Source: an uncultured Thermoleophilia bacterium (GTDB lineage Bacteria; Actinomycetota; Thermoleophilia; Gaiellales; Gaiellaceae). From it: DNA of 64,000 bases. The stretch covers positions 28,930-92,929 of the forward strand of contig CAVZER010000008.1 in the NCBI GenBank assembly GCA_963774355.1, read 5' to 3'. Below are positions 9,960 through 56,610 of this stretch, one piece after another (position 1 is the first letter of the stretch; every line of letters begins with the position of its first letter). A program made the position numbers and the translations under genes. A model generated the notes under the pieces. The model saw only the letters and a list, made by a program, of their open reading frames with translations. It was not told the DNA's origin and did no database searches.

Positions 9960-10424
9960 CTACGTGCTTGCCCACCAGACAGCGACGAGGTAAACAATCG
10001 CCGCAGCCGGAACGCAAAGCAATCCGGCCATCCACGCGACTTCTCCGACGTCTGGCCACGGCTCCTCGGTGCCGGAGAGCGTGGTAGTTCCGGCGGTGCC
10101 ATCGTCGATCGCGCGGCTGAGTACGGTTGCCGCCCAATCGAACTGAATTCGTGCCGTCGCCAGTGCTCCGCCCCCCAAGATGATCAGCGTTGCCGCTATT
10201 GCGACAAGCGCCTTGGGGGCACCGTCGGCCACGTTGCTGGCGAGTAGGCCGATCAACGCGATGAGTCCCGCACCGACCCAGAGAATCATGCTCAGACGCC
10301 ATTGGTACTGTCGAAGGCGCTTGGCATAGGTCTGCTCGGCATTCTTGGGCGCGATGCGCTGTCCGAGACGCTTTATGAACGGCTGTGGCGTGTTGGGAAG
10401 GGCAGCCACGTGAGTGTCAGGCAT
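9960..10424 (-). CDS. hypothetical membrane protein (three predicted TM helices; possibly SLATT/DUF4231-like)
   Basis: 154-aa ORF in a lower-GC islet. A basic N-terminal helix (AEQTYAKRLRQYQWRL) is followed by two close TM helices, an amphipathic helix and a C-terminal TM helix. Confidence 0.55.
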   Translation of the reverse strand: MPDTHVAALPNTPQPFIKRLGQRIAPKNAEQTYAKRLRQYQWRLSMILWVGAGLIALIGLLASNVADGAPKALVAIAATLIILGGGALATARIQFDWAATVLSRAIDDGTAGTTTLSGTEEPWPDVGEVAWMAGLLCVPAAAIVYLVAVWWAST

Positions 10425-10761
10425 GTCGAAAGCTATTGAAGATCGAGAAGGAGTGATCCAAGTACGTTTCGATCTCCGACGGCTGTAAGGGTGCGTCCGC
10501 GTAGGCGTGGCGAGCTACGACTGCGACGGTCACCATCTCTGCGAACAGTTCGGCGAACCGGTCGCTCACGTCGCCTTGACTCATGAGCCGCTTGGCTTCC
10601 GCAAGCGCCTCGGGCAGCTCGTCGGCTGAAGGGACAGGATCAACAGTCAGCCGCGCGAGCAAATCCGGTCGCGCTTCGAGGCCATGGCGCGAAGCTCGCG
10701 CGATGCCTGCCTGCACGCCGGCCGAAAAAGCAACGTTCGACGGGGGTTCCAACACTGCCAT
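10417..10761 (-). CDS. hypothetical acidic helical protein (114 aa)
   Basis: The ORF overlaps the downstream membrane-protein gene by 8 nt and shares the same lower-GC islet. No family recognised. Confidence 0.5.
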   Translation of the reverse strand: MAVLEPPSNVAFSAGVQAGIARASRHGLEARPDLLARLTVDPVPSADELPEALAEAKRLMSQGDVSDRFAELFAEMVTVAVVARHAYADAPLQPSEIETYLDHSFSIFNSFRHA

Positions 10762-13689: not shown

Positions 13690-13717
13690 GGTGCCTGGCA
13701 CCTCGGTGCCAGGCACC
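13690..13717. repeat. 28-nt palindromic repeat GGTGCCTGGCACC-tc-GGTGCCAGGCACC, inside the E2 linker
   Basis: Perfect copy. In the downstream E2 frame it is translated as VPGTEVPGT. Confidence 0.9.
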
Positions 13718-13759: not shown

Positions 13760-13787
13760 GGTGCCTGGCACCTTGGTGACAGGCACC
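13760..13787. repeat. 28-nt palindromic repeat copy (one mismatch), inside the E2 linker
   Basis: GGTGCCTGGCACC-tt-GGTGaCAGGCACC, 70 nt from the copy at 13690. Translated as PVTKVPGT in the lipoyl-domain frame. Confidence 0.9.
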
Positions 13788-19046: not shown

Positions 19047-19074
19047 GGTGCCTGGCACCAAGGTGCCAGGGACC
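19047..19074. repeat. 28-nt palindromic repeat copy (one mismatch), convergent spacer upstream gene/pheT
   Basis: GGTGCCTGGCACC-aa-GGTGCCAGGgACC between stop codons at 19040 and 19085. It is positioned like a bidirectional terminator hairpin. Confidence 0.85.
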
Positions 19075-26078: not shown

Positions 26079-26276
26079 CTAGCGCCTCCCGAGCAGGCGG
26101 TTGACGGTGCGCTCGTTGTCGGCCGCGACTGACTTGAACTTACTGAACGTTCGCTTCTGCTTCGGCGACTTGTGCTCCAGATTGTGGCTCTGGTTCGCCG
26201 ACCGACGCAGCAACTTGCCCGTCCCCGTCACCTTGAACTTCTTCTTCGCTCCCGAGTGTGTTTTCTGTTTCGGCAT
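26079..26276 (-). CDS. rpmI: 50S ribosomal protein L35
   Basis: [25 protein letters not shown]...; AGGAG Shine-Dalgarno 8 nt upstream. Confidence 0.97.
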
Positions 26277-26844
26277 CTCGTTTGACTCCTGCGTTCTTCG
26301 TGGGGCCGAGCACCATCGTCATGTTCCGGCCTTCGAGCAGCGGCTGCGTCTCGATCATGCCGATGTCCTTCACGTCGTCTGCCAACCGCATCAGCAGGTC
26401 GCGCCCACGATCCGGATGCTCGCGCTCACGGCCGCGGAACATGATCGTGACCTTCACCTTCGCGCGCTGGTTCAGGAAGCGCTCGACGTGGCCTCGTTTC
26501 GTGTCGTAGTCGTGCTGCCCGATCTTGGGTCTGAGCTTGATCTCCTTGACGTGGATCTGTGTCTGGTGCTTGCGGGCGAGCTTTGCCTTCTGCTCCAGCT
26601 CGTACCGGTACTTGCCGTAGTCCATGACGCGCGCGACCGGCGGGTCCGCCTGCGCTGCGACCTCGACGAGGTCGAGGTTCTTCGCGTACGCGTACTCCCG
26701 CGCCTCGTCCGTGGACTTGATCCCCATCTGGCCGCCGTTCTCGTCGATCAGCCTCACGCGCGGAACCCGGATCGCGTCGTTGATACGCGTCTGCGGCTCC
26801 GGACGGCGCGGTGGCTCTACCGACCGCCTACCTCTGGGCCTCAA
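26140..26844 (-). CDS. infC: translation initiation factor IF-3 (UUG start; 3' end overlaps rpmI by 137 nt as sequenced)
   Basis: [23 protein letters not shown]...LDLVEVA...[12 protein letters not shown]...MFRGRE. The first in-frame start is TTG at 26844. No stop occurs before rpmI in this frame. Confidence 0.9.
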
Positions 26845-26886
26845 GGCTGTGGCCTCAAATCTGTGGCCTCAAATGCACTTCACCAA
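26841..26886 (-). promoter_or_regulatory. Three tandem 5-codon UUG-initiated mini-ORFs chained by UUGA overlaps into the infC start
   Basis: Minus strand: TTG GTG AAG TGC ATT TGA (26886-26869), TTG AGG CCA CAG ATT TGA (26872-26855) and TTG AGG CCA CAG CCT TGA (26858-26841), then the infC TTG at 26844. Spacing is 14 nt, and each GAGG sits 8 nt before the next TTG. Confidence 0.5.
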
Positions 26887-26912
26887 GCTCGTCGTTTCCT
26901 CCTCCGTCAATG

Positions 26913-26942
26913 AAAAAACCGCCGGCGTGCATGGCGCAGCGG
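26913..26942 (-). terminator. hairpin plus U6 between thrS and infC (terminator or attenuator)
   Basis: Minus strand: CCGCUG...CGGCGG stem (26942-26919) followed by UUUUUU (26918-26913). Confidence 0.55.
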
Positions 26943-26992
26943 TCTCGTCAACCTGCTCGGTGAGCAACTCGGTTGAACCCCCGAAGCTCTCG

Positions 26993-28918
26993 CTAGGAGG
27001 TGAGAGACGGTTCCGCCCCTGCTTGCCAGGACTCAAGGTTAGCAAGTTTGTCGCGGAAATCGGCCAGCGACAGCGTGCTCTGACCCCCGCCGTGCTCTCG
27101 GATCGCCAGGGAATCGCTCGATTCCTTGTCGCCGTAGACGACGACGAACGGGATCTTGTCGATCTCGGCGTTCCGGATCCGCTTGCCGACCGTCTCGTCC
27201 GAGGCGTCGACCTCGACCCGGTACGGCGCAAGCTCATCGGCGAGCTGGACCGCCGCCTCGCGATGGCTCTCGCCCACCGGGATCACGCGGATCTGCACGG
27301 GAGCGAGCCAGAAGGGGAACGCGCCGGCGTAGTGCTCGATCAGGATCCCGACGAACCGCTCGAGCGACCCGAACAACGCGCGGTGGACGACGTAGGGCGA
27401 ATGTTCGTGGTTGTCGGCGCCCATGTAGGTGAGCCCGAAGCGCTGGGGCATCTGGGAATCGAGCTGGATCGTCCCCATCTGCCACGAGCGGCCGATCGCG
27501 TCGGTCATGTGCAGGTCGATCTTGGGCCCGTAGAACGCGCCGTCGCCCTCGTTGACGACGTAGTCGATCCCGCGCCGATCAAGCGCGGCGCGGAGCGCAC
27601 CCTCGGTGAAGTCCCATTCCTCGTCGCTGCCGATCTTGTGCTCGGGTCGCGTCGAGAGCTCGAAGCGCGCCTCGAGCCCGAAGAGGTCGTAGAGGAACGA
27701 CGCGTAGTCGATGCAGCCGAAGATCTCGTCCTCGATCTGGTCGGCCCGGCAGAAGATGTGCGCATCGTCCTGGGTGACGTGCTTCACGCGGAGCAGGCCG
27801 TGCAGCGTGCCGCCCTTCTCGTCGCGGTGCAGCGTCGACGACTCCGCGAAGCGCATCGGTAGGTCTTTGTAGCTCCGCAGACGCGACCCGAACAGCAGCA
27901 TGTGCCCGGGGCAGTTCATCGGCTTGAGGGCGAAACGACGGTCGCTCTCGTCGTGGCTCTGCACCCAGAAGATGTGCTCCTCGTAGTTCTCGAAGTGGCC
28001 CGAGGTGACGTAGGTCTCCTGGTCGTACAGAAGCGGCGTCTTCACCTCCAGATAGCCGCGCCTTTCGTTCTCGCGACGCCGGAGATCCTCGAGCTCGTTC
28101 CAGATCACCATCCCCTTCGGGTGCCAGAAGGGCGAGCCGGGCGAATGCTCGGAGAGATGGAAGAGGTCGAGCTGTAGCCCGAGCCGGCGATGGTCGCGGC
28201 GCCGTGCCTCCTCGACGCGCTCGAGGTACGCGGCCAGGTCGGCCTGCGAGTAGAAGGCCGTCCCGTAGATCCGCGTGAGCTGCGTGTTGTGCTCGTCGCC
28301 GCGCCAGTAGGCGCCGGCCAGGCCGGTGAGCTTGAACGCCTTGATCGGCCTCGCGTTCTGCAGGTGCGGGCCGCGGCAGAGATCGGTGAAGTCACCCTGG
28401 GTGTAGAGGGAGATGTCGCCCTCCGCGGTGTCGACGAGCTCGACCTTGTACGGCTCGCCCTCGGCGGTGAACCGCTTCCGTGCGTCGTCGCGGCTGATCT
28501 CCTGCCGAGTCCACTCGCGGCCCTCGGCGATCTCGCGCGCCACCTCGTCCTCGATGCGCGGGAGATCGGACTCGGAGATCGGCTCCGGGAACTCGAAGTC
28601 GTAGTAGAACCCGTTCTCGACCGGCGGGCCGATAGCGACCTTGACGCCGGGATACAGCCGTCTGACCGCCTCGGCCAGCAGGTGTGCAGACGAGTGGCGC
28701 AGCACGGCGAGCGCATCGGGGTCCTGCGCGTCGCGTGTCGTCAGAATCTGCAGGCGGGCACCGTCGGGAAGCGGCGCGCGCAGATCCTGCGGTGTGCCGT
28801 CAGCCCGCACCAGCACCGCCTGCTCGGCGAGCTTCGGGCCGATCGCCCGCGCAGCGTCGAGGCCGGTCGCGCCGTCGGGCAGCTCGAGCTCGGAATTGTC
28901 GGGCAAGAAGACTTTCAT
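26993..28918 (-). CDS. thrS: threonine--tRNA ligase
   Basis: MKVFLPDNSELELPDGATGLDAA (TGS domain), HSSAHLLA editing domain, class II core (FRCEQ-like HRDEKGGTLHGLLRV) and a C-terminal anticodon-binding domain. ATG at 28918. Confidence 0.95.
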   Translation of the reverse strand: MKVFLPDNSELELPDGATGLDAARAIGPKLAEQAVLVRADGTPQDLRAPLPDGARLQILTTRDAQDPDALAVLRHSSAHLLAEAVRRLYPGVKVAIGPPVENGFYYDFEFPEPISESDLPRIEDEVAREIAEGREWTRQEISRDDARKRFTAEGEPYKVELVDTAEGDISLYTQGDFTDLCRGPHLQNARPIKAFKLTGLAGAYWRGDEHNTQLTRIYGTAFYSQADLAAYLERVEEARRRDHRRLGLQLDLFHLSEHSPGSPFWHPKGMVIWNELEDLRRRENERRGYLEVKTPLLYDQETYVTSGHFENYEEHIFWVQSHDESDRRFALKPMNCPGHMLLFGSRLRSYKDLPMRFAESSTLHRDEKGGTLHGLLRVKHVTQDDAHIFCRADQIEDEIFGCIDYASFLYDLFGLEARFELSTRPEHKIGSDEEWDFTEGALRAALDRRGIDYVVNEGDGAFYGPKIDLHMTDAIGRSWQMGTIQLDSQMPQRFGLTYMGADNHEHSPYVVHRALFGSLERFVGILIEHYAGAFPFWLAPVQIRVIPVGESHREAAVQLADELAPYRVEVDASDETVGKRIRNAEIDKIPFVVVYGDKESSDSLAIREHGGGQSTLSLADFRDKLANLESWQAGAEPSLTS

Positions 28919-28978: not shown

Positions 28979-29006
28979 GGTGCCTGGCACCTAGGTGCCA
29001 GGCACC
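28979..29006. repeat. 28-nt palindromic repeat, perfect copy
   Basis: GGTGCCTGGCACC-ta-GGTGCCAGGCACC, 61 nt upstream of the thrS start. Confidence 0.9.
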
Positions 29007-46451: not shown

Positions 46452-46961
46452 ATGAGCACGCAAGTCGACAGGGTCACGATTCCGGCGGACGGTAGTGAGC
46501 AGGTCGATCTGGGCGGGCTCGGCATCGTCTGGAAGATCGAAGGTGCGGAGGCCGGCGAGCGCTTCTCCGTCGTCCACCACCCGCTCGCGCCACGCGCTCT
46601 CGCGGCGCCACTGCATCGGCATACGCGGGAGGACGAATACTCGTACGTGCTCGAGGGAACGCTGGGCGCGCTGCTCGGCGACGACGTCGTCACGGCCGAG
46701 CCCGGAACGTGGGTGTTCAAGCCCCGCAACCAGTGGCACACGTTCTGGAACGCCGGAGACACACCGTGCGAGATCATCGAGATCATCTCGCCCGCGGGAT
46801 TCGAGAACTTCTTCCGCGAGCTCGCCGATGTCTACGCGACCGACGGCGGACCTGATCTCGCCCGCTTCGCCGACCTCTGCTCCCGCTACGCGCTCGAGAT
46901 GGATCCGGACAGCGTGCCGGGCCTCTGCAAGCGCTTCGGGGTCAGGCATCCGTTGGCTTGA
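46452..46961 (+). CDS. cupin-domain protein
   Basis: HRHTREDEYSYVLEG...GTWVFKPRNQWHTFWN cupin motifs. AAGGAG RBS 5 nt upstream. Confidence 0.8.
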   Translation: MSTQVDRVTIPADGSEQVDLGGLGIVWKIEGAEAGERFSVVHHPLAPRALAAPLHRHTREDEYSYVLEGTLGALLGDDVVTAEPGTWVFKPRNQWHTFWNAGDTPCEIIEIISPAGFENFFRELADVYATDGGPDLARFADLCSRYALEMDPDSVPGLCKRFGVRHPLA

Positions 46962-46990
46962 CGACCCACGATTGATCGGCACGTGATCGG

Positions 46991-56582: not shown

Positions 56583-56610
56583 GGTGCCTGGCACCGTGGT
56601 GCCAGGCACC
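56583..56610. repeat. 28-nt palindromic repeat, perfect copy
   Basis: GGTGCCTGGCACC-gt-GGTGCCAGGCACC between genes 56623-57033 and 55562-56542. A degenerate fragment (CCTAGGCACCAGG) lies at 56551-56563. Confidence 0.9.

What the first reader, a model, noticed from the sequence alone, without database searches (positions are those of the whole stretch)
26841..26886. Cascade of three UUG-initiated 5-codon mini-ORFs leading into the UUG start of infC
- On the minus strand the infC leader reads TTG GTG AAG TGC ATT TGA, then TTG AGG CCA CAG ATT TGA, then TTG AGG CCA CAG CCT TGA, then TTG AGG CCC AGA GGT... (infC).
- The starts are exactly 14 nt apart (26886, 26872, 26858, 26844).
- Each UGA stop overlaps the next UUG in a UUGA arrangement.
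- Each GAGG lies 8 nt upstream of the following UUG, which is Shine-Dalgarno spacing. A GGAGGAGG precedes the first mini-ORF.
- The last two mini-ORFs and infC share the same opening codons (UUG AGG CC).
- IF-3 is known to discriminate against non-AUG starts, and in E. coli it autoregulates through its own unusual start codon. A relay of UUG starts upstream of infC could amplify that feedback. I am not aware of this architecture having been described.
Basis: partly seen in the sequence, partly recalled or inferred. Interest (0 to 1): 0.65.

Follow-up and report, generated by a model that had tools for sequence, protein, structure and literature searches.

The report
Triplicated mini-ORF relay before infC
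A tiny upstream reading frame whose stop codon overlaps the UUG start of the initiation-factor-3 gene is conserved across a whole group of soil actinobacteria, and in this genome a 14-base tandem duplication has turned that single link into a chain of three, so the conserved link is the notable part and the chain is a private variant.

Summary
On the minus strand, UUG codons at 26886, 26872, 26858 and 26844 are 14 nt apart. Each mini-ORF ends in a UGA that overlaps the next UUG, and the last UUG starts infC.

The listed features are one event, not several: a 14-nt tandem repeat of about 3 copies. Because 14 = 2 mod 3, every copy of UUGA falls in frame.

Among 160 related Gaiellales/Thermoleophilia loci, only one (L001, 98% identical DNA) has three units. 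The others of this type have one unit: AGGAGG, then 9-12 nt, then UUG-GUG, then 7 variable nt, then UUGA-GRCC (infC). So the first mini-ORF is a conserved uORF, and the other two are recent copies of the infC start site.

Best explanation: infC is translated by termination-reinitiation after the uORF. Repression of such reinitiation by IF3 is shown only in E. coli, so a feedback role here is inferred.

Main rival: the conserved GGUGA is simply the infC Shine-Dalgarno sequence.

Verdict: a new variant of a known kind, of moderate interest.

The parts
27036..27044 (-). Extended -10-like promoter element TGCTAACCT, inside the 3' end of thrS. It is the likely promoter of the infC-rpmI-rplT leader.
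   Evidence: TGnTAnnnT occurs 155-220 nt upstream of infC in 57 of 67 loci and is nearly invariant in alignment A1. No transcription start data are available.
26907..27030 (-). Structured leader resembling the L20 leader. It overlaps the thrS stop codon (TAG 26995-26993) and ends in a terminator-like hairpin.
   Evidence: Sub-threshold full-length RF00558 hits fall at the same place: window 18.6 bits, L005 28.5, L026 23.7, L013 22.5, against a gathering score of 58.7. Of 19 consensus pairs, 7 show compensatory changes.
26913..26943 (-). Terminator-like or attenuator-like hairpin (ACCGCUG...CGGCGGU) followed by UUUUUU.
   Evidence: Read from the sequence and seen in the minimum-free-energy fold. 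A conserved GCCGCUGC-loop-GCAGCGG hairpin with a U-rich tail is present in relatives.
26898..26905 (-). Shine-Dalgarno sequence GGAGGAGG that serves the first mini-ORF.
   Evidence: A 5-7 nt match to AAGGAGG occurs in 126 of 134 relatives, 9-12 nt (aligned spacing, mode 11) before the UUG. The rpmI SD in the same loci has mode 8.
26869..26886 (-). Conserved uORF (mini-ORF 1): UUG 26886 and/or GUG 26883, then AAG UGC AUU, then UGA 26871-26869. It contains the SD-like GGUGA (26884-26880).
   Evidence: CTTGGTGA, then 7 variable nt, then TTGA is present in 134 of 144 distinct junctions. The length is fixed (one exception, L149) and the inner sequence varies. No locus has lost both start codons.
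26855..26872 (-). Mini-ORF 2 (UUG AGG CCA CAG AUU UGA). It is a duplicated copy of the infC start site.
   Evidence: It is absent from 159 of 160 related loci and is part of the 14-nt tandem repeat.
26841..26858 (-). Mini-ORF 3 (UUG AGG CCA CAG CCU UGA). It is a second duplicated copy, and its UGA overlaps the infC UUG.
   Evidence: Same evidence as for mini-ORF 2.
26833..26874 (-). The 14-nt tandem repeat, 3.1 copies. Relative to single-unit relatives it amounts to a 28-nt insertion.
   Evidence: Tandem Repeats Finder score 63. Alignment A1 shows a 28-column insertion only in the window and L001.
26140..26844 (-). infC (IF3). The start is UUG 26844, codon 2 is AGG, and the N-terminus is RPRG. 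The ORF runs 137 nt into rpmI.
   Evidence: Pfam finds IF3_N at residues 21-88 and IF3_C at 97-181. The start codon is TTG in 137 and GTG in 7 of 144 junctions. Three-base periodic conservation begins at codon 2. An in-frame stop lies within 30 nt upstream in 80 of 128 loci.

Best explanation
**What it is.** This is the translation start region of infC in a Gaiellales (class Thermoleophilia) genome.

**The conserved core.** In the clade, the infC-rpmI-rplT leader is transcribed from a promoter in the 3' end of thrS. It passes an L20-leader-like structure and a terminator-like hairpin, and then carries a strong Shine-Dalgarno sequence (AGGAGG). A 4-5 codon uORF (UUG-GUG-N9) follows 9-12 nt later. 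Its UGA stop overlaps the UUG (rarely GUG) start of infC as UUGA.

**How infC is most likely translated.** Ribosomes load at the strong SD, translate the uORF, terminate at the UGA and restart on the overlapping UUG. The weak SD-like GGUGA inside the uORF probably helps the restart.

**What is special in this genome.** In this lineage (the window and one 98%-identical relative), the 14 nt that contain the infC start (UUG plus the next 11 nt) were tandemly duplicated twice.
- Because 14 = 2 mod 3, each copy is a 5-codon mini-ORF that ends in a UGA overlapping the next UUG. The single stop-start link became a relay of three.
- Each copy also places GAGG 8 nt before the next UUG.

**Shown versus inferred.**
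- Shown: the anatomy, the conservation of the first link, and the lineage-specific duplication.
- Inferred from sequence patterns: that the uORF is translated and coupled to infC.
- Inferred by analogy with E. coli only: that the coupling makes infC expression sensitive to IF3 (IF3 inhibits SD-poor reinitiation), and that three steps sharpen that feedback.
For: **Anatomy.** Read from the sequence and the tandem-repeat call.

**Conservation of the first link.**
- Of 144 distinct junctions from 160 loci, 134 are of the type CTTGGTGA, 7 variable nt, TTGAGRCC. 116 have TTG+GTG, 18 have one start codon changed (to TAG, CTG, GTA, GAT or ATG), and none has lost both.
- GTG is replaced by ATG in 3 junctions, which keeps a start codon but breaks GGUGA.
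- A 3-nt insertion (TTG ATG GTG...) in L085 keeps the frame.
- Other lineages have uORFs of 5, 7, 8-10 or 23 codons. In each, the first start codon after the SD is in frame with the TGA that overlaps infC.
- The five Solirubrobacterales-type loci (L075, L076, L078-L080) instead have TAGTG, a 1-nt stop-start overlap, in 5 of 5.

**Codon 2 of infC.** It is AGR in 69 of 69 loci where CGN was allowed. Arg codon 4 is AGR in 35%, codon 5 in 18%, and Arg codons in the rest of infC in 11%. This keeps the A of the UGA.

**No alternative infC start.** There is no conserved alternative start and no own GGAGG.

**Structure.** The junction folds no better than shuffled sequence, mean z = +0.74.

**The duplication.** The 28-nt insertion is found only in the window and L001. 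These two differ at about 2% of flanking positions, so they are separate genomes.

**IF3 link.** IF3 overproduction lowers SD-less reinitiation about 3-fold in E. coli, and less so when an SD is present (PMC2268962). NUGA and URRUG overlaps between uORFs and genes are common in M. tuberculosis.
Against: - There are no expression, ribosome-profiling or transcription-start data for any of these organisms.
- The SD-to-UUG spacing (mode 11) is longer than at rpmI (mode 8). For the GUG it is 12-15.
- GGUGA, extended to GGUGAU(C) in 36 of 134 junctions, is complementary to the 16S rRNA tail at an aligned spacing of 10 from the infC UUG. It could serve as an ordinary SD for direct initiation.
- AGR at codon 2 could be favoured for expression in its own right: AGA/AGG at codons 2-3 outperform CGN in E. 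coli lacZ (PMC2034473).
- The uORF peptide is not conserved.
- The triple relay is seen in only two near-identical genomes, so nothing shows selection for it. Zero differences over 56 nt is unremarkable at 2% divergence.
- Three serial restarts should lower IF3 output unless the new GAGG motifs allow direct entry.
- The IF3 effect on reinitiation comes from one E. coli reporter.
Confidence: 0.55

Rival explanations
1. Direct initiation. The conserved CUUGGUGA is simply the Shine-Dalgarno sequence of infC: GGUGA(UC) pairs with the 5'-GAUCACC part of the 16S rRNA tail. The UUG/GUG inside it are not used, or do not matter. The upstream AGGAGG is a standby or decoy site. The extra 14-nt units are a neutral tandem duplication that happens to supply GAGG as a new SD.
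For: - GGTGA lies at an aligned spacing of 10 from the infC TTG in 127 of 134 junctions, within the 8-12 range seen for SDs in this clade. It is extended to GGTGAT or GGTGATC in 36.
- A at -8 is invariant, which fits an SD.
- AGR at codon 2 may be an expression effect.
- In the window, each duplicated unit places GAGG at spacing 8, the rpmI optimum.
Against: - GGUGA is broken in 7 distinct junctions (GATGA, GGTAG/GGTAC, GGATA) that all keep a start codon.
- Lineages without GGUGA at that position (L061-L068, L074) still have an SD-led ORF in frame with the overlapping TGA.
- The five Solirubrobacterales-type loci keep a stop-start overlap (TAGTG) although codon 2 does not begin with A.
- This reading leaves the strong, position-conserved AGGAGG 25 nt upstream without a role.
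Confidence: 0.25
2. The three UUG mini-ORFs are an evolved relay. IF3 discriminates against each UUG start, so the feedback on infC is multiplied.
For: - All four starts are UUG, and infC is never AUG in 144 junctions.
- An in vitro survey reports that IF3 tolerates only Watson-Crick pairs at codon positions 1 and 2 (PMC10158994 abstract). This would disfavour UUG.
Against: - The cascade is not conserved: 2 of 144 junctions have it. It is explained by one 14-nt duplication event.
- In the in vivo work summarised in PMC5472188 and PMC2268962, IF3 represses codons other than AUG, GUG and UUG.
- The first mini-ORF has a GUG, or an AUG in some relatives, as an alternative start.
Confidence: 0.1
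3. The conserved CUUGGUGA...UUGAGRCC block is an RNA structure or a protein-binding operator (for example for L20 or IF3), not a set of start and stop codons.
For: - Conservation extends beyond the codons themselves: A-17, R-16, C-15 and A-8.
- RNAalifold draws a 3-bp GGU/RCC pairing across the junction.
Against: - The region -35..+30 folds no better than shuffled sequence in 125 junctions (mean z = +0.74). No pair is predicted in more than 16% of them.
- The proposed pairs never covary, because the columns are invariant.
- The substitutions that are tolerated are exactly those that keep a start codon.
Confidence: 0.06
4. Assembly or sequencing artefact: the extra 14-nt units are not in the real genome.
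For: Short tandem repeats can be miscounted by assemblers.
Against: The identical three-unit array is present in an independent metagenome-assembled genome (L001, CAVQKS010000005.1). That genome differs from the window at about 20 of 600 flanking positions.
Confidence: 0.03

Closest known systems
Termination-reinitiation coupling through 4-nt NUGA (and 1-nt URRUG) stop-start overlaps, including uORF-gene overlaps in Actinobacteria (Huber et al. 2019, PMC6728339; D'Halluin et al., bioRxiv 10.1101/2022.06.01.494293)
   Same: A UUGA overlap links a short SD-led ORF to a downstream gene that lacks a canonical SD. The five Solirubrobacterales-type loci show the URRUG form, UAGUG.
   Different: The downstream gene is infC itself. 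The uORF is only 4-5 codons long and is conserved across an order. In this genome three such links are chained by a tandem repeat. No paper was found that links infC to a uORF.
E. coli-type infC autoregulation through a non-canonical start codon (AUU; AUC in Streptomyces)
   Same: The same gene and operon (infC-rpmI-rplT), and a never-AUG start that is conserved.
   Different: The start here is UUG or GUG, which are canonical-class codons. The defining non-canonical codon is therefore absent. If feedback exists, it would have to act through reinitiation.
IF3 inhibition of SD-less reinitiation at the M13 gene V-VII junction (Yoo and RajBhandary 2008, PMC2268962)
   Same: A restart at a start codon next to a stop codon, without a strong SD. 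It gives a tested route by which the IF3 level could set infC output.
   Different: It was shown only with an E. coli reporter and an AUG restart. Nothing has been tested in Thermoleophilia.
Bacillus subtilis L20 leader (Rfam RF00558; Choonee et al. 2007, PMC1865079)
   Same: It lies upstream of infC-rpmI-rplT, has helices followed by a terminator hairpin, and gives recurring full-length sub-threshold hits at the same place.
   Different: Scores are 18.6-28.5 bits against a gathering score of 58.7. It concerns the region upstream of the finding, not the mini-ORFs.
Yeast GCN4 multi-uORF reinitiation control
   Same: Several very short uORFs in series, where the restart probability sets expression of the main ORF (PMC4793210 and PMC4027193 were listed; the analogy is from general knowledge).
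   Different: GCN4 uses eukaryotic scanning with spaced uORFs. Here the stops and starts overlap and there is no scanning. This is an analogy only.

Membership tests
Termination-reinitiation (NUGA) translational coupling | The stop codon of the upstream ORF overlaps the start codon of the downstream ORF (NUGA). | tested here: met
   UUGA is present at 26872-26869, 26858-26855 and 26844-26841. [T/G]TGA at the infC start is present in 149 of 160 related loci.
Termination-reinitiation (NUGA) translational coupling | The upstream ORF has its own ribosome-binding site and start codon. | tested here: met
   AGGAGG-type SD lies 9-12 nt before the UUG in 121 of 134 junctions. At least one of UUG or GUG/AUG is kept in all 134. 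This is sequence-level evidence only.
Termination-reinitiation (NUGA) translational coupling | The downstream start lacks an efficient SD of its own. | tested here: inconclusive
   There is no GGAGG, but a conserved GGUGA(UC) lies at an aligned spacing of 10. In the window, GAGG lies 8 nt before each later UUG.
Termination-reinitiation (NUGA) translational coupling | Downstream translation depends on upstream translation. | not testable with these tools
   This needs reporter or ribosome-profiling experiments.
E. coli-type infC autoregulation | A non-canonical infC start codon (AUU, AUC or AUA) that IF3 discriminates against. | tested here: not met
   The start is TTG in 137 and GTG in 7 of 144 junctions. 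No conserved in-frame near-cognate start lies upstream, and an in-frame stop lies within 30 nt in 80 of 128 loci. Codon-periodic conservation begins at codon 2.
E. coli-type infC autoregulation | infC expression responds inversely to the IF3 level. | not testable with these tools
   This needs IF3 titration experiments.
L20 leader (Rfam RF00558) | A covariance-model score at or above the gathering threshold (58.7 bits). | tested here: not met
   Scores are 18.6 bits in the window and 22.5-28.5 bits in L013, L026 and L005.
L20 leader (Rfam RF00558) | Location upstream of infC-rpmI-rplT, with a terminator hairpin at the 3' end. | tested here: met
   The hit at 27030-26907 ends at the hairpin with the U6 run, 26943-26913. 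Gene identities come from Pfam.
prfB-type programmed +1 frameshift (CUU UGA) | The downstream protein is encoded in the +1 frame after CUU UGA, with an SD about 3 nt upstream of the slip site. | tested here: not met
   38 of 58 relatives do end the uORF in CUU UGA. However, infC lies in the -1/+2 frame relative to the uORF. In the window the last sense codon is AUU, and by hand reading of the sequence the +1 frame stops after 10 codons. No SD lies 3 nt upstream.
Leader-peptide transcription attenuation (trp type) | The leader ORF overlaps alternative terminator/antiterminator helices and carries regulatory codons. | tested here: not met
   In the window type, the uORF lies downstream of the hairpin and its codons are not conserved. 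The L069/L073 lineage does have a 23-codon uORF that spans the hairpin.

The most novel reading that the evidence does not exclude
In Thermoleophilia, the near-universal non-canonical infC start codon has been replaced by a different IF3 sensor. In this reading, infC is made only by SD-poor reinitiation after a 4-5 codon uORF, and IF3 itself suppresses that step. The level of IF3 would therefore be set by its recycling and fidelity activity at a stop-start overlap. In this species, a tandem triplication of the junction would create a natural three-step relay that raises the effective cooperativity of that feedback.
Probability: 0.13. Interest if true: 0.8.

Novelty: new variant of a known kind. 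Interest (0 to 1): 0.5.

Why it matters
IF3 autoregulation through an abnormal start codon is a textbook case, and it is conserved in distant bacteria (AUU in E. coli, AUC in Streptomyces). Here a whole actinobacterial class uses UUG or GUG instead and has a conserved, overlapping mini-uORF in front of infC.

If infC is expressed by reinitiation in this clade, that would be a second, mechanistically different route to IF3 homeostasis. It would also be a natural in vivo read-out of IF3's disputed role in reinitiation and ribosome recycling.

The 1-unit and 3-unit natural alleles form a ready-made allelic series for testing whether serial stop-start links change the gain of such a circuit.

If the rival is right and GGUGA is an ordinary SD, the finding reduces to an unusual SD plus a neutral 28-nt duplication.

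Tried and rejected
1. **Known RNA families.** Rfam found nothing on the mini-ORFs. It found only a sub-threshold L20 leader upstream.
2. **prfB-like +1 frameshift at CUU UGA.** Rejected because infC is in the wrong frame for it.
3. **A non-canonical (AUU/AUC) infC start hidden near the UUG**, as is mis-annotated in Streptomyces. Rejected because codon-periodic conservation and AGR/CGN switching begin right after the UUG, the frame is closed just upstream in most loci, and no near-cognate codon is conserved.
4. **A third-frame ORF ending at the TGA of GGTGA**, which would make a cascade in all relatives. Rejected because its possible starts are scattered, and absent in 42 of 128 loci.
5. **A hairpin across the junction.** Not supported.
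6. **A promoter between the hairpin and the uORF.** The consensus scan finds nothing there. By eye, the TTGACG in the window is not conserved in relatives.
7. **Copy-number variants in close relatives.** None were found: no 2-unit or 4-unit allele among 160 loci. The nearest single-unit relatives are 87-89% identical in IF3.
8. **Statistical rarity of 'three linked mini-ORFs'.** This is not rare by itself.
9. **Literature.** No paper was found that couples infC to a uORF or mentions Gaiella infC.

Full report
**1. The observation**

There are three 5-codon frames, TTG GTG AAG TGC ATT TGA, TTG AGG CCA CAG ATT TGA and TTG AGG CCA CAG CCT TGA. They are followed by TTG AGG CCC AGA GGT..., which opens a 234-codon ORF.
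- Pfam finds IF3_N (residues 21-88) and IF3_C (97-181) in that ORF. The neighbouring genes are thrS upstream and rpmI and rplT downstream.
- The starts are 14 nt apart and every junction is TTGA.
- GAGG lies 8 nt before each later TTG. GGAGGAGG (26905-26898) lies 11 nt before the first.

**2. How much of it is chance**

The listed regularities are one fact. Tandem Repeats Finder reports a 14-nt repeat of 3.1 copies at 26833-26874 (score 63). A 14-nt repeat containing TTGA automatically gives the period, the overlaps, the GAGG spacing and the identical opening codons.
- It gives in-frame stops only because 14 = 2 mod 3, which has a prior of one in three.
- Chains of three TGA-overlapped mini-ORFs are not rare as such. 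First-order Markov sequences of this composition give about 0.7 per 64 kb.
- The window holds two more such chains, at 10390 and 46953. Neither ends on a gene.
- What sets the infC chain apart is its position and its history.

**3. Relatives**

A scan of one genome per species with the IF3 protein returned 80 loci. All are Gaiellales, other Thermoleophilia or unclassified Actinomycetota MAGs. A metagenome scan returned 80 more.

Among 144 distinct junction sequences, 134 share one architecture:
- an AGGAGG-type Shine-Dalgarno sequence;
- 9-12 nt later, CTTGGTGA;
- then 7 nt that vary freely in sequence, with fixed length apart from a 1-nt deletion in L149;
- then TTGAGRCC, where TTG (137) or GTG (7) is the infC start.

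The 28-nt insertion that makes three units exists only in the window and in L001. L001 is an independent MAG that differs from the window at about 2% of flanking positions. The nearest single-unit relatives have 87-89% identical IF3.

So mini-ORF 1 is an old, conserved uORF. Mini-ORFs 2 and 3 are recent tandem copies of the first 14 nt of infC itself.

**4. Is the conserved uORF real?**

Evidence for:
- TTG at -14 and GTG at -11 are each occasionally lost: TAG or CTG eight times, GTA or GAT four times. They are never lost together.
- GTG is replaced by ATG in three junctions.
- A 3-nt insertion in L085 keeps the frame.
- In lineages with quite different leaders, the first start codon after the SD is again in frame with the TGA that overlaps infC. 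These uORFs have 5, 7, 8-10 or 23 codons.
- The five Solirubrobacterales-type loci (L075, L076, L078-L080) have TAGTG, a one-base stop-start overlap, in 5 of 5.
- infC codon 2 is AGR in 69 of 69 loci even when CGN was allowed. Arg codons 4 and 5 are AGR in 35% and 18%, and the rest of the gene in 11%. This preserves the A of the UGA.
- If the UGA were lost, the uORF frame would run a median of 29 codons over the infC start.
- The junction is not structured: mean z = +0.74 against shuffles, with no recurrent pair.

Evidence against, or ambiguous:
- The SD-to-UUG spacing (mode 11) is longer than at rpmI in the same loci (mode 8).
- GGUGA, often GGUGAU(C), is complementary to the 16S rRNA tail at an aligned spacing of 10 from the infC UUG. 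It could be an ordinary SD for infC.
- AGR at codon 2 can favour expression in its own right in E. coli (PMC2034473).

I weigh the patterns as favouring a translated, coupled uORF (about 0.6), with GGUGA probably helping the restart. Direct initiation is the main rival.

**5. The true infC start**

Streptomyces infC starts at AUC and is often mis-annotated (PMC5472188), so I checked for a hidden non-canonical start.
- Three-base periodic conservation and AGR/CGN switching begin immediately after the UUG.
- The infC frame is closed within 30 nt upstream in 80 of 128 loci.
- No near-cognate codon is conserved.
- The start is therefore UUG/GUG, never AUG and never AUU/AUC. This clade does not meet the defining feature of E. 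coli-type autoregulation.

**6. Surroundings**
- A conserved extended -10 element (TGnTAnnnT; 27044-27036 in the window) lies 155-220 nt upstream of infC in 57 of 67 loci.
- Just downstream, Rfam's L20 leader model gives full-length but sub-threshold hits at the same place in the window, L005, L013 and L026 (18.6-28.5 bits against 58.7).
- The helices show compensatory changes.
- The element ends in a hairpin with a U-rich tail (26943-26913).
- The mini-ORFs therefore most likely sit in a 5' leader that is also under L20-type attenuation. This is inference only, because no transcription-start data exist.

**7. Mechanism**

Shown: the anatomy, the conservation and the duplication.

Inferred: ribosomes load at AGGAGG, translate 4-5 codons, terminate at UGA and restart on the overlapping UUG.

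In E. coli, IF3 overproduction lowers SD-less reinitiation about three-fold without affecting de novo initiation, and an SD softens the effect (PMC2268962). This is a better-founded route to IF3 feedback than discrimination against UUG, because the in vivo literature describes IF3 as acting on codons other than AUG, GUG and UUG. One in vitro survey is stricter.

In the window, three restarts in series could multiply both the loss and the IF3 sensitivity. However, each new unit also brings GAGG at the clade's preferred spacing of 8, which could allow direct entry. Nothing in the data shows that the triplication is selected.

**8. Comparison and novelty**
- Stop-start (NUGA/URRUG) coupling, including uORF-gene overlaps, is well known and common in Actinobacteria (PMC6728339 was listed).
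- I found no paper that places such a uORF in front of infC, and none on Gaiella infC.
- I therefore rate this a new variant of a known kind. It is a conserved uORF-infC overlap that replaces the non-canonical start codon in one class, with a private three-link allele in one species.
- Interest is moderate (0.5). The conserved link is the interesting part.

Noticed in passing
window 26140-26276 (minus strand); loci L002-L160: infC has no stop codon before rpmI. It runs 137 nt into rpmI in another frame, which gives IF3 an acidic tail of about 50 aa beyond the IF3_C domain. An overlap of 116-176 nt is present in most related loci (about 105 of 139 measured), so it appears conserved in Gaiellales.
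   Followed up: partly
window 26907-27030 (minus strand); L005 2837-2957, L013 2846-2965, L026 2847-2965: A conserved structured leader upstream of infC gives full-length but sub-threshold hits to Rfam L20_leader (18.6-28.5 bits against a gathering score of 58.7). It has compensatory pairs and a terminator-like hairpin. It is probably a diverged L20-type attenuator that the Rfam model does not capture.
   Followed up: partly
window 26993-27044 (minus strand): The infC-operon promoter (extended -10 TGCTAACCT) and the first helices of the leader lie inside the 3' end of thrS. The thrS stop codon (TAG 26995-26993) sits within the conserved leader motif CUCACCUCC-UAG, so the last roughly 15 codons of thrS are read from leader RNA sequence.
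   Followed up: partly
L069 and L073, positions -68 to +4 relative to the infC ATG: In another Thermoleophilia lineage, a 23-codon uORF (AAAGGAG-atc-GTG) spans the terminator hairpin and ends in ATGA overlapping an ATG infC start. This could link uORF translation to attenuation.
   Followed up: no
L075, L076, L078, L079, L080 (infC start region): Five Solirubrobacterales-type loci (three titled Solirubrobacterales, one Solirubrobacteraceae, one only Actinomycetes) start infC at GTG, immediately preceded by TAG (cTAGTG, a 1-nt stop-start overlap). In four of the five (L076, L078-L080) an in-frame TTG lies 7-9 codons upstream (TTGACGC in three of them), with no obvious Shine-Dalgarno sequence; in L075 the nearest in-frame start is at -89. 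A TATACT-like -10 element lies about 100 nt upstream.
   Followed up: partly
window 6084, 13690-13717, 13760-13787, 19047-19074, 28979-29006, 56583-56610: A REP-like palindrome, GGTGCCTGGCACC-nn-GGTGCCAGGCACC, recurs at six sites. There are 11 matches against 0.1 expected. One pair sits at the 5' end of thrS and produced spurious microRNA hits in Rfam.
   Followed up: partly
L149 (Ga0136846_1225199), infC junction: This is the only junction with a 1-nt shorter spacer (TTGGTGAGAGCAT|TTGAGG). The uORF frame then misses the TGA and stops at a TAG 8 nt into infC. It is either a sequencing error or a natural exception.
   Followed up: no
window 10390-10453 (+) and 46953-46983 (+): Two other chains of three TGA-overlapped mini-ORFs occur here. 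Neither is periodic and neither leads into an ORF of 80 aa or more. They serve as chance examples for calibration.
   Followed up: yes
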